Under the pieces are notes generated by a model. It was not told the DNA's origin. It saw nothing but the letters and a program-made list of their open reading frames with translations, and ran no database searches. From NCBI GenBank assembly GCA_001751005.1, contig MAXL01000486.1, forward strand, positions 1 to 26,063: 26,063 nucleotides of DNA, written 5' to 3'. Source of the stretch: Desulfobacterales bacterium S5133MH16. Its GTDB lineage: Bacteria; Desulfobacterota; Desulfobacteria; Desulfobacterales; UBA11574. The position numbers were made by a program, and so were the translations under genes. Below are positions 20,312 to 21,086 of the stretch, piece by piece. Numbering within the stretch: the stretch's first letter is position 1; every line of letters begins with the position of its first letter.

Positions 20312-20470
20312 TTAATTTTTCTGCGATGTTTTGTTTTTGCCATTACCTTTATTGCTTGTCACCTGACAAGAATCTTTCAGTCAGGTGGAAATTCCTAATT
20401 TTGGCAGGATATAAGCCTGCAAAAGATACCAGATCCCTACGATGATCACCAACCCAATGATTTCTTTCAT
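20312..20470 (-). CDS. Candidate 52-aa membrane-anchored selenoprotein (U30, UxxxxC)
   Basis: AAGGAG RBS 7 nt before the ATG. Hand translation MKEIIGLVIIVGIWYLLQAYILPKLGIST-U-LKDSCQVTSNKGNGKNKTSQKN; in-frame TGA at 20383-20381 followed by a hairpin. If the UGA is a stop, it is a 29-aa membrane peptide. Confidence 0.65.
20355..20370 (-). promoter_or_regulatory. SECIS-like hairpin of the small ORF
   Basis: CTTGTC-AGGT-GACAAG starting 10 nt after the UGA, extendable by ATT/AAT across a bulged C. Confidence 0.6.
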
Positions 20471-20603
20471 TTTTTATCTCCTTTATTCCGACACCCTCTA
20501 CAGCATTTGATAAAAAACAGGGGTTACAGGTGACGGTTCACGTAATCATGTGCATGTGAAACAGCCTCTGTGATTTCTTTTAAATGTTTCAGATCTTCCC
20601 GGT

Positions 20604-21086
20604 TCATAAATATTTTTTTTCTATCAGGTCCGACAGTGCTTCAATCTCTTCCAAGCCAAATGTGGGCACATTTACACTGATATCCGTATCTGTGACAAGG
20701 GCGATGAAGGTTTTATCATCATTGCAAAGCAGCTTTTTGTTTTTACTGGAGCGACATACTTCTATTTTGGGTCTTTTTTCCTTTTTGAACCCTTCAGTGA
20801 TAACAAGATCCACGTCATCAAAATATTTTTCAATGCTTTCCAACTGCACGAAATTTTCATCTTTTATCATGACGATCCTTTCCCTGGAAGCAACAATGAC
20901 CGTATCTGCACCGGCTGCTTTGTGACGCCAGCTATCCTTTCCTTTTTTGTCCATATCAAAATCATGAGAAGCGTGTTTAACAGTCCCTACCCTGTATCCC
21001 CGTTTTTTAAGTTCGGGAATTAGCTTTTCGATCAATGTGGTCTTGCCGGATTTGGATTTACCTACAACAGAAATAATAGGCAGCAT
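20604..21086 (-). CDS. mobB: Molybdopterin-guanine dinucleotide biosynthesis protein B
   Basis: VVGKSKSGKTTLIEKL P-loop, VGTVKH, GKDSWRH..AGA and DLVITEGFK motifs. Confidence 0.93.
   Translation of the reverse strand: MLPIISVVGKSKSGKTTLIEKLIPELKKRGYRVGTVKHASHDFDMDKKGKDSWRHKAAGADTVIVASRERIVMIKDENFVQLESIEKYFDDVDLVITEGFKKEKRPKIEVCRSSKNKKLLCNDDKTFIALVTDTDISVNVPTFGLEEIEALSDLIEKKYL

What the first reader, a model, noticed from the sequence alone, without database searches (positions are those of the whole stretch)
20312..20470. Hidden 52-aa membrane selenoprotein candidate with a UxxxxC motif
Seen: strong RBS, one hydrophobic helix, then LPKLGIST-UGA-LKDSC. A 6-bp hairpin with a GG-containing loop starts 10 nt after the UGA, close to the spacing of the E. 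coli fdhF SECIS, and the frame stays open for 22 more codons. The region is blank in the ORF track. A competing 8-bp helix (CACCTGAC/GTCAGGTG) would sequester the UGA itself and exclude the SECIS fold. From memory, similar short proteins elsewhere have Cys at this position (unverified). Inference: a minimal membrane-anchored redox or metal-binding selenopeptide, normally mis-annotated as a 29-aa peptide or missed, possibly with structure-controlled readthrough; it lies downstream of mobB on the same strand.
Basis: partly seen in the sequence, partly recalled or inferred. Interest (0 to 1): 0.82.

Follow-up and report, generated by a model that had tools for sequence, protein, structure and literature searches.

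The report
Known small membrane selenoprotein, unannotated here
The 29-codon membrane ORF after mobB is really a 52-codon gene whose UGA is almost certainly read as selenocysteine. [quoted passage not shown]

Summary
It lies on the minus strand, 20470 to 20312.

The UGA at 20383-20381 is conserved in all 111 homologous loci I extracted from the same phylum. It is followed by an invariant Cys, four residues on in 105 of them, and by at least 16 more sense codons.

The 6-bp hairpin with an AGGU loop starts 10 nt after the UGA. It shows compensatory changes (U-A to C-G at two pairs, never unpaired) and fits the bacterial SECIS consensus. The rival UGA-sequestering helix shows no covariation.

Homologues in Planctomycetota, Myxococcota, Acidobacteriota and other phyla have Cys at the Sec position (C-x4-C) and lack the hairpin.

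The genome has tRNA-Sec, SelA and SelB.

The family is not new. [quoted passage not shown] This scan has met the family before on other DNA. It has no Pfam or NCBIfam model and is usually cut to 29 residues.

Function is unknown. Gene neighbourhoods point to thiol or persulfide redox chemistry at the membrane: thioredoxin, rhodanese, disulfide oxidoreductases, and ECF sigma with zinc-finger anti-sigma. They do not point to molybdenum cofactor synthesis.

The parts
20312..20470 (-). Complete selenoprotein gene: 52 codons with UGA as Sec30, stop TAA at 20314-20312. Product: MKEIIGLVIIVGIWYLLQAYILPKLGIST-U-LKDSC-QVTSNKGNGKNKTSQKN.
   Evidence: Orthologues with the same layout in 111 loci. Matches the sequences printed in Data S1 of PMC12013277.
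20478..20482 (-). Shine-Dalgarno AGGAG, 7 nt before the ATG.
   Evidence: A GGAG-type motif is visible in the 16 nt printed before the start codon of most of the 52 orthologous loci (read by eye, not counted).
20405..20461 (-). Codons 4-22: the single transmembrane helix (IIGLVIIVGIWYLLQAYIL).
   Evidence: Flank charges suggest N-out/C-in: N flank net -0.3, C flank net +1.1 (inference).
20381..20383 (-). In-frame UGA, read as Sec30. Cys in homologues from other phyla.
20366..20368 (-). Cys35 codon (TGT), partner of Sec in the U-x4-C motif. Its third base pairs inside the SECIS stem.
   Evidence: Invariant in alignment A1. Pair 30-37 covaries: UA 36, CG 10, UG 2.
20355..20370 (-). SECIS-like hairpin CUUGUC-AGGU-GACAAG. 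The stem starts 10 nt after the UGA and the loop 16 nt after it.
   Evidence: Covariation. MFE hairpin with the loop at +16 in 50 of 52 orthologues. Absent at that place in 57 Cys forms.
20360..20387 (-). Alternative helix CACCUGAC/GUCAGGUG that would bury the UGA. It forms on paper in this genus only and is not conserved.
   Evidence: MFE -13.8 kcal/mol. (no compensatory change; 10-32 of 48 sequences unpaired at four of its eight pairs).
20524..20607 (-). 27-codon remnant of the C-terminus of an HD-domain gene. In relatives that gene sits intact between mobB and the selenoprotein gene.
   Evidence: (…LKEITEAVSHAHDYVNRHL) against cluster 1 (…KEITAAVKHAHDYVERRL).
20604..21086 (-). mobB, the upstream gene on the same strand, probably co-transcribed.
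   Evidence: PF03205, 171 bits. Promoter-like site at 21221-21193 and no terminator-like site in between.

Best explanation
Window 20470-20312 (minus strand) is one gene for a 52-residue, single-pass membrane selenoprotein.

How the UGA is read (mechanism inferred from what is known of SelB and fdhF; the hairpin's conservation is shown). When the ribosome reaches UGA30, the hairpin CUUGUC-AGGU-GACAAG sits at the mRNA entrance, 10 nt downstream. It acts as a bacterial SECIS: SelB with Sec-tRNA(Sec) binds it and selenocysteine is inserted.

What the product is (architecture shown, topology inferred). It has an N-terminal transmembrane helix followed directly by a U-x4-C pair and a short Lys/Asp/Glu-rich tail. 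It is probably oriented N-out/C-in, which puts the selenol/thiol pair at the cytoplasmic face of the membrane.

What it belongs to (shown). [quoted passage not shown] It is therefore a known predicted selenoprotein of unknown function.

Most likely role (inferred from neighbourhoods only, about 35% confidence). The protein would be a membrane-anchored selenenylsulfide/dithiol centre working in thiol or persulfide (reactive sulfur) redox homeostasis or sensing. It would be serviced by cytoplasmic thioredoxin and, in many lineages, wired to an ECF sigma / zinc-finger (RsrA-like) anti-sigma pair.
For: (1) The UGA and what follows it are conserved.
- 52 matches in 51 of 61 related genomes span the TGA; every one holds in-frame TGA (one TGA each, three in G013) and no other stop.
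- 178 of 401 genomes across the phylum have a match. All 150 listed matches contain the TGA.
- In 111 extracted loci, 88 have exactly 29 codons before Sec and 105 have U-x4-C. All have at least 16 codons after Sec.
- P23, G26, T29, U30 and C35 are invariant.

(2) The hairpin behaves as a SECIS.
- Pair 27-40 is UA 27, CG 20, UG 1. Pair 30-37 is UA 36, CG 10, UG 2. Neither is ever unpaired.
- 35 cells changed on both sides, against 18.7 +/- 3.4 in shuffles (0 of 500 reached it).
- The loop starts exactly 16 nt after the UGA in 50 of 52 loci. Loops are AGGU, AGUU, GGGU or GGGC, which fits the bSECIS consensus quoted in PMC13188914.
- More distant members keep a hairpin with the loop at +16 or +23: 53 of 59 meet the criteria.

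(3) Sec/Cys pairs exist.
- 51 of the best 150 hits of a profile search have Cys at the Sec position.
- 57 genomic Cys-form genes read ...G-x-x-T-C-M-S-G-A-C....
- The Sec and Cys profiles align with 99.7% probability, E 1.5e-26, Sec on Cys.
- Cys forms lack the hairpin: 0 of 57 at +16, and 17 of 57 scattered hairpins meet the loose criteria.

(4) The recoding machinery is in the genome: tRNA-Sec 75 bits, SelA 599 bits, SelB 381 bits.

(5) Family identity. [quoted passage not shown] 'Unknown (Geobacter lovleyi)' appears in Table S3 of PMC5029168.

(6) Role.
- Operon-like neighbours of 56 Cys-form loci: thioredoxin 12, rhodanese 12, zf-HC2 11, Pyr_redox_2 9, TauE 6, DsbD_TM 5, metallo-beta-lactamase 5, YgaP_TM 5.
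- The neighbouring thioredoxins have CxxC and no signal peptide.
- Among the 73 operon-like downstream neighbours scanned, taken from about 94 non-redundant Sec-form loci, ECF sigma appears 10 times and zf-HC2 9 times.

(7) No terminator-like site and no Rfam family in the region. An RNA-library contig spans 20222-20430, across the UGA.
Against: - There is no protein-level evidence for Se incorporation or for translation past the UGA.
- The window's own hairpin folds at only -6.8 kcal/mol. That is weaker than the -7.5 of the consensus model; the family median is -8.4.
- The isolated RNA prefers the UGA-sequestering helix.
- SelD was not found above its cut-off in this MAG, which is 88.6% complete in 574 contigs: best hit 70 bits against 125.
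- For the role, no neighbour is universal and contexts are heterogeneous. MerR, ArsR, HMA ATPase and RND efflux genes also occur.
- In this window the neighbours are only mobB and a convergent TPR protein.
- Topology rests on the positive-inside rule alone.
Confidence: 0.9

Rival explanations
1. The UGA is a genuine stop. The product is a 29-residue membrane peptide, and the conserved downstream sequence is a regulatory RNA hairpin or terminator rather than coding sequence.
For: Gene callers report the 29-aa form in more than 100 database clusters. The most conserved nucleotides are the hairpin itself. Metatranscriptome contigs from relatives match only 20352-20388.
Against: Full-length homologues with Cys at the UGA position and the same C-x4-C layout exist in other phyla, and they lack the hairpin. 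The frame stays open at least 16 codons in all 111 loci despite divergent tails. There is no U-tract or terminator-like site. The hairpin's geometry and loop fit a SECIS. The family is listed as a selenoprotein by specialists.
Confidence: 0.03
2. Sec insertion is gated by an RNA switch. The 8-bp helix CACCUGAC/GUCAGGUG hides the UGA and excludes the SECIS fold, so readthrough is structure-controlled.
For: The helix is the MFE fold of the isolated RNA in this window and in most loci of its genus, plus L034 of another family: -11.4 to -16.2 kcal/mol.
Against: There are no compensatory changes. Pair 15-30 breaks in 10 of 48 sequences, pair 16-29 in 32, pair 9-36 in 20 and pair 12-33 in 11, because the 3' arm covaries with the SECIS partner instead. 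A ribosome decoding the UGA has already unwound the 5' arm, which frees the 3' arm for the SECIS hairpin (inference from ribosome footprint geometry).
Confidence: 0.05
3. The U-x4-C pair is mainly a soft-metal or metalloid ligand (Hg, Cu, Cd, As, or selenium itself) for sensing or trafficking at the membrane, rather than a thiol/persulfide redox centre.
For: Some loci carry MerR (3), ArsR/HTH_5 (3) and HMA-domain proteins (2) upstream. One locus has a P-type heavy-metal ATPase directly upstream. One Cys-form locus has ArsR plus a Czc-like RND pump. Vicinal Sec/Cys pairs bind soft metals (general chemistry).
Against: These neighbours are a minority. Thioredoxin, rhodanese, disulfide oxidoreductase, TauE, DsbD and ZAS anti-sigma genes are several times more frequent. 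ArsR-family regulators also sense persulfides, for example BigR-type regulators (background knowledge, not tested).
Confidence: 0.2
4. The protein serves molybdenum or tungsten cofactor handling, because it follows mobB and lies beside an aldehyde:ferredoxin oxidoreductase gene.
For: mobB is within two genes upstream in 18 loci (19 hold one in the fetched stretch), and AOR is divergent in several loci of the same family.
Against: The linkage is confined to one family of the order. Elsewhere the gene sits after unrelated genes. Cys forms in other phyla are never next to mobB among the 105 neighbours scanned. In this window, the HD-domain gene that relatives have between mobB and this gene has decayed to a remnant.
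Confidence: 0.04

Closest known systems
[quoted passage not shown]
   Same: Same family. The printed members read ...LLQAYILPKLGISTUMRNACQVTS......ILPRLGVPTUMADTCSPGG... and so on. They have the identical layout of one TM helix, P-x2-G-x2-T-U-x4-C and a charged tail.
   Different: Nothing structural; this is an unannotated orthologue. The published lists give no function, no Cys homologues and no context. The 2016 count was 5 genes in 5 organisms, against 178 of 401 genomes of the phylum here. The family is absent from Table 1 of the 2026 catalogue and has no Pfam or NCBIfam model.
E. coli fdhF SECIS and the bacterial SECIS consensus (Zhang and Gladyshev model, as quoted in PMC13188914)
   Same: In-ORF hairpin just after the UGA. 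Small apical loop with G followed by G or U in its first positions. Loop 16 nt after the UGA, the lower limit of the 16-37 range. Stem of 5-8 bp.
   Different: It is a minimal 6-bp stem with a tetraloop and no bulged U. The window's copy is -6.8 kcal/mol, weaker than the model's -7.5. A second geometry, with the loop at +23 and G(G/U)(A/C) triloops, is used by other classes of the phylum.
Unnamed Cys-form homologues (all 'hypothetical protein') in Planctomycetota, Myxococcota, Acidobacteriota, Omnitrophota, Nitrospirota and Armatimonadota, e.g. in Lacipirellula limnantheis I41
   Same: Same length and architecture. P23, C30 and C35 are invariant. The profiles align with 99.7% probability.
   Different: Cys replaces Sec, there is no SECIS hairpin, and tails are longer and more acidic. 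They occur in genomes with and without SelA: 2 of 5 tested have it.
Other small membrane or short-motif selenoproteins: LULAxC-motif TsoA (NF045695), YgaP-like_TM/DUF2892 and DUF6132 forms
   Same: Short proteins with Sec close to a Cys. The YgaP-like/DUF2892 and DUF6132 forms are membrane-embedded or anchored, and earlier notes of this scan found them cut short at the UGA.
   Different: No sequence relationship: no NCBIfam or Pfam hit at E <= 1. The motifs differ (U-x3-C in LULAxC), and the DUF2892 and DUF6132 proteins have two helices.
SigR-RsrA type ECF sigma / zinc-finger anti-sigma thiol-stress switch with thioredoxin regulon (Streptomyces; background knowledge)
   Same: The family is repeatedly encoded next to an ECF sigma, a short soluble zf-HC2 anti-sigma (about 85 aa, HxxxCxxC) and thioredoxin.
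   Different: No small membrane Sec/Cys protein is part of the described SigR-RsrA system. Any interaction here is hypothetical. This window has no such pair nearby.
Eukaryotic SELENOK / SELENOS (background knowledge)
   Same: Single-pass membrane selenoproteins with Sec in a short, disordered cytosolic segment.
   Different: No homology. There Sec is near the C-terminus and the SECIS lies in the 3' UTR. This is an analogy only.

Membership tests
Bacterial SelB/SECIS-decoded selenoprotein | In-frame UGA conserved among orthologues, with coding conservation continuing past it | tested here: met
   TGA in all 111 loci; Cys five residues on (U-x4-C) in 105 of 111, six or seven on in the rest; at least 16 further codons.
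Bacterial SelB/SECIS-decoded selenoprotein | Homologues with Cys aligned to the UGA position | tested here: met
   51 metagenomic and 57 genomic Cys forms; hhalign 99.7%.
Bacterial SelB/SECIS-decoded selenoprotein | bSECIS geometry: 3-9 nt apical loop with G in its first two positions, upper stem 4-16 bp, 16-37 nt from UGA to loop | tested here: met
   loop AGGU, 6-bp stem, spacing 16 nt. Compensatory changes.
Bacterial SelB/SECIS-decoded selenoprotein | bSECIS stability, MFE <= -7.5 kcal/mol | tested here: inconclusive
   -6.8 kcal/mol in this window; family median -8.4, range -4.0 to -15.7.
Bacterial SelB/SECIS-decoded selenoprotein | Sec machinery in the same genome (tRNA-Sec, SelA, SelB, SelD) | tested here: met
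   tRNA-Sec 75.3 bits, SelA 599 bits, SelB 380.6 bits. SelD was not found over its cut-off (70 against 125 bits) in an 88.6%-complete MAG.
Bacterial SelB/SECIS-decoded selenoprotein | Selenium shown in the protein (75Se labelling or mass spectrometry) | not testable with these tools
   No proteomic data were available. The RNA contig across the UGA does not show translation.
[quoted passage not shown] | Sequence match to the members printed by the authors | tested here: met
   One printed member shares LLQAYILPKLGISTU and CQVTS with the window's peptide. Others match the class-II members found. The comparison was by eye on the printed text, not by an alignment tool.
LULAxC-motif selenoprotein TsoA (NF045695) | Match to the NCBIfam model; L-U-L-A-x-C motif | tested here: not met
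   no NCBIfam hit at E <= 1. The motif here is T-U-x4-C.
YgaP-like_TM / DUF2892 small membrane (seleno)proteins (PF11127) | Match to the Pfam model; two-helix hairpin | tested here: not met
   no hit; one helix only. PF11127 proteins do occur as neighbours of Cys forms.

The most novel reading that the evidence does not exclude
The family is a membrane-surface selenol/thiol (U/C-x4-C) sensor or relay for reactive sulfur or thiol stress. It would be reduced by a dedicated cytoplasmic thioredoxin and would signal to a soluble RsrA-like zinc-finger anti-sigma factor and its ECF sigma. That would make it a third component of ZAS-type switches, one that has gone unnoticed because the gene is tiny and, in Desulfobacterota, cut short at its UGA.
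Probability: 0.2. Interest if true: 0.6.

Novelty: already known. Interest (0 to 1): 0.3.

Why it matters
The gene corrects the annotation: one 52-residue selenoprotein instead of a 29-residue peptide or nothing.

The family is one of the most widespread selenoproteins of Desulfobacterota, found in 178 of 401 sampled genomes. Even so, it is:
- cut short in more than 100 database clusters;
- without any Pfam or NCBIfam model;
- missing from the 2026 catalogue of 119 families;
- known only as a name in supplementary files.

The additions made here give a testable functional lead for an abundant protein of unknown function in sulfate-reducing sediment bacteria. These additions are:
- the Cys-form relatives in other phyla;
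- the two SECIS geometries;
- a neighbourhood signature of thioredoxin, rhodanese, persulfide genes and ECF sigma with ZAS anti-sigma.

A curated HMM would let annotation pipelines call the gene.

Tried and rejected
- Pfam and NCBIfam scans of Sec and Cys forms found nothing.
- An Rfam scan of the region gave only a chance snoRNA hit on the other strand.
- The terminator scan found none, so the hairpin is not an intrinsic terminator.
- The UGA-sequestering helix was rejected as a conserved element.
- The nine 'full-length' database proteins P0001-P0009 turned out to be TGA read as Trp by code-4 gene calling, not Cys forms.
- The search for related loci with the Cys alignment failed because no stretch was conserved enough. 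It was replaced by a degenerate DNA pattern scan. Two of its 60 hits were chance and one had no ORF.
- Comparing open-frame lengths in the three frames after the hairpin was uninformative, because downstream genes overlap the tail in other frames.
- Full-text searches for the family name, for 'UxxxxC' and for membrane selenoproteins found nothing.
- The protein atlas returned only 'hypothetical protein' clusters.
- I did not run structure prediction. A 52-residue single helix with a disordered tail would not discriminate between the hypotheses.

Full report
**What is there.** The finding lies on the minus strand. An AGGAG Shine-Dalgarno (20482-20478) precedes the ATG at 20470 by 7 nt. The frame encodes MKEIIGLVIIVGIWYLLQAYILPKLGIST, then TGA (20383-20381), then LKDSCQVTSNKGNGKNKTSQKN and TAA (20314-20312). 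The ORF list shows only the 29-codon piece. Ten nucleotides after the UGA lies the perfect hairpin CUUGUC-AGGU-GACAAG (20370-20355). The alternative 8-bp helix CACCUGAC/GUCAGGUG also exists. It is the minimum-free-energy fold of the isolated RNA, at -13.8 kcal/mol, z = -1.4. mobB lies upstream on the same strand.

**Is the UGA decoded?** A six-frame search of 61 related genomes gave 52 strong matches in 51 genomes. Each match runs across in-frame TGA into the following residues: one TGA each, except the broken G013 copy with three. Across the phylum, 178 of 401 sampled genomes (118 of 255 genera) have a match. All 150 listed matches contain the TGA, and none has TAA or TAG at that place.

I extracted 111 loci.
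- 88 have exactly 29 codons before the TGA.
- 105 have Cys five residues after it (U-x4-C); six have that Cys one or two residues further on.
- All continue for 16-43 sense codons into a Lys/Asp/Glu-rich tail of variable sequence.
- In an alignment of 40 members, P23, G26, T29, U30 and C35 are invariant.

**The hairpin.** I counted pairs on an alignment of 51 orthologous segments.
- The five core pairs are essentially always formed.
- Two pairs show full compensatory change: pair 27-40 is UA 27, CG 20, UG 1, and pair 30-37 is UA 36, CG 10, UG 2. Neither has any unpaired case.
- Cells changed on both sides number 35, against 18.7 +/- 3.4 in shuffles (0 of 500 reached it). The slid controls collapse.
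- The changes pair a synonymous third position (TGT/TGC, TCT/TCC/GCC) with a first position that alters the amino acid (ACA/GCA, AGC/GGC). This is what an RNA constraint predicts.

Folding the 45 nt after the UGA puts the apical loop exactly 16 nt downstream in 50 of 52 loci. The loops are AGGU (36), AGUU (6), GGGC (4), GGGU (3) and GGUU (1). [quoted passage not shown] The window's copy is slightly weaker than the model's energy threshold, at -6.8 against -7.5 kcal/mol; the family median is -8.4.

More distant members of the phylum keep a hairpin, partly in a second geometry with the loop at +23 and G(G/U)(A/C) triloops. 53 of 59 meet the criteria.

The UGA-sequestering helix shows no compensatory change. 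It breaks in 10-32 of 48 sequences at four of its eight pairs. It is a by-product of the Thr-Sec and Cys-Gln-Val codons in this genus, not a conserved switch.

**Sec/Cys pairs.** A profile search of 1.84 billion representative proteins found 1122 relatives. Among the best 150:
- 56 end at residue 29;
- 28 have 'W' at the position, which is TGA read by code-4 gene calling, as also seen;
- 51 have Cys there, in a G-x-x-T-C-M-S-G-A-C motif.

A DNA pattern scan of one genome per species found 57 genuine Cys-form genes. They lie in Planctomycetota (including the isolate Lacipirellula limnantheis I41), Myxococcota, Acidobacteriota, Omnitrophota, Nitrospirota and Armatimonadota. In the Cys-form alignment of the metagenomic relatives, P23, C30 and C35 are invariant. 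That profile aligns to the Sec-form profile with 99.7% probability, E 1.5e-26, with Sec on Cys.

None of the 57 has the hairpin at +16. Only 17 have any hairpin meeting the loose criteria, and these lie at scattered positions. The hairpin therefore goes with the UGA, not with the protein sequence.

**Machinery.** The window's genome is a MAG of 574 contigs, 88.6% complete. It has tRNA-Sec (75.3 bits), SelA (599 bits) and SelB (381 bits). SelD was not found above its cut-off, which I put down to incompleteness but cannot show. SelB is over its cut-off in 48 of the 61 genomes searched (the window's own and 60 relatives); most of the others are incomplete assemblies. Cys forms occur with and without SelA: 2 of 5 genomes tested have it.

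**Other checks.** There is no terminator-like site and no Rfam family in the region. The DNA is found in marine-sediment and cold-seep metagenomes. One metatranscriptome contig covers 20222-20430, across the UGA. Contigs from relatives match only the 20352-20388 core. This shows presence in RNA libraries and nothing about translation.

**Is it new?** No Pfam or NCBIfam model hits either form. Sources call it 'hypothetical protein'. Table 1 of the 2026 catalogue of 119 prokaryotic selenoprotein families has no matching entry.

[quoted passage not shown] I checked this. Table S3 of Peng et al. 2016 (PMC5029168) lists 'Unknown (Geobacter lovleyi)' with 5 genes in 5 organisms. [quoted passage not shown] Six entries there carry that name, and the four whose sequence I fetched include ...LLQAYILPKLGISTUMRNACQVTSKQ......ILPRLGVPTUMADTCSPGG... 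and ...ILPRLGVQTULSGACAPEDR.... These are plainly this family, in both of its SECIS classes.

The family is therefore already known to specialists as a predicted, uncharacterised selenoprotein. Other notes show that this scan has met it before on other DNA (e1-2336591, e1-2982535, e1-5146984).

**What it probably does.** The architecture is shown: one transmembrane helix, then immediately P-K-L-G-I-S-T-U-x4-C, then a charged tail. Flank charges suggest N-out/C-in, which would place the pair at the cytoplasmic face. The N flank is net -0.3 and the C flank net +1.1; in Cys forms they are -0.5 and +0.6. This is an inference.

Neighbourhoods differ by lineage.
- In the window's taxonomic family the gene follows mobB and an HD-domain gene, 17 times directly behind the HD gene. 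Here that gene has decayed to a 27-codon remnant at 20524-20607.
- In 10 loci it follows a Tat-exported 4Fe-4S protein and a 4-helix membrane protein.
- In 10 Sec-form loci an ECF sigma gene comes immediately after it, followed in 9 of them by an 85-residue zf-HC2 (HxxxCxxC) anti-sigma gene.

Cys forms give the clearer picture. Among 105 operon-like neighbours of 56 loci, the counts are thioredoxin 12, rhodanese 12, zf-HC2 11, pyridine nucleotide-disulfide oxidoreductase 9, TauE 6, DsbD_TM 5, metallo-beta-lactamase 5 and YgaP-like 5 (individual loci). The adjacent thioredoxins have CxxC sites and no signal peptide.

This is the gene set of thiol and persulfide (reactive sulfur) homeostasis. 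I therefore favour a membrane-anchored selenenylsulfide/dithiol centre that is reduced by thioredoxin and in many lineages tied to an RsrA-like switch. I put that at about 35%. A soft-metal role is the main rival at about 20% (MerR, ArsR, HMA and RND neighbours). A molybdenum-cofactor role is unlikely, because the mobB linkage is confined to one lineage.

**Verdict.** Its RNA-switch idea is not supported. The gene is an unannotated member of an already listed selenoprotein family of unknown function.

Noticed in passing
window 20524-20607 (-): This 27-codon ORF (…LKEITEAVSHAHDYVNRHL) is the decayed C-terminus of a ~260-aa HD-domain gene. That gene is intact between mobB and the selenoprotein gene in 17 related loci. 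Here and in several genomes of the same genus it has been deleted.
   Followed up: partly
L073-L132 (phylum-level loci), e.g. L093, L097, L114: The family uses two SECIS geometries: loop at +16 (AGGU tetraloop, the CQVT-type sequence) and loop at +23 (7-bp stem with GGA or GUC triloop). The second imposes the conserved peptide x-[IV]-[EG]-[DS]-R after the Cys.
   Followed up: partly
L037 (G013:C13:10031-10183): One genome of the same genus has a copy without a recognisable N-terminal helix. The frame upstream differs, and three TGA were counted in the open frame. It may be a broken copy or an assembly problem.
   Followed up: no
P0124, P0154, P0157, P0159, P0201, P0257, P0259: A few metagenomic relatives have Gly, Arg or Ser at the Sec/Cys position. 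These codons are one substitution away from TGA (GGA, CGA/AGA, TCA). They may be real losses of the redox residue or sequencing errors.
   Followed up: no
L024, L046, L055, opposite strand to the family gene: Three loci share a frame reading …LP.PRG.A-TGA-H.AG… on the other strand. This is a conserved stretch of unknown nature, possibly an RNA gene or another frame of a conserved gene.
   Followed up: no
L039:687-2154, L046:2389-3835 and 8 other loci: A conserved pair lies directly upstream of the selenoprotein gene in 10 genomes: a Tat-signal 4Fe-4S protein (~330 aa) and a 157-aa four-helix membrane protein without any Pfam match, with His residues in its helices.
   Followed up: partly
G000 (own genome): SelD was not found above its cut-off (best 70 bits, at C55:4475-5164), although tRNA-Sec, SelA and SelB are present. 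The MAG is 88.6% complete.
   Followed up: no
window 20352-20388: Metatranscriptome contigs of other organisms (word depth up to 95) match only this 35-nt UGA-plus-SECIS core. Homologues therefore seem to be present in sediment RNA libraries, and this is the most conserved DNA of the gene.
   Followed up: no
If right, it is a second Sec codon in the same 26 kb. I did not check it.
   Followed up: no
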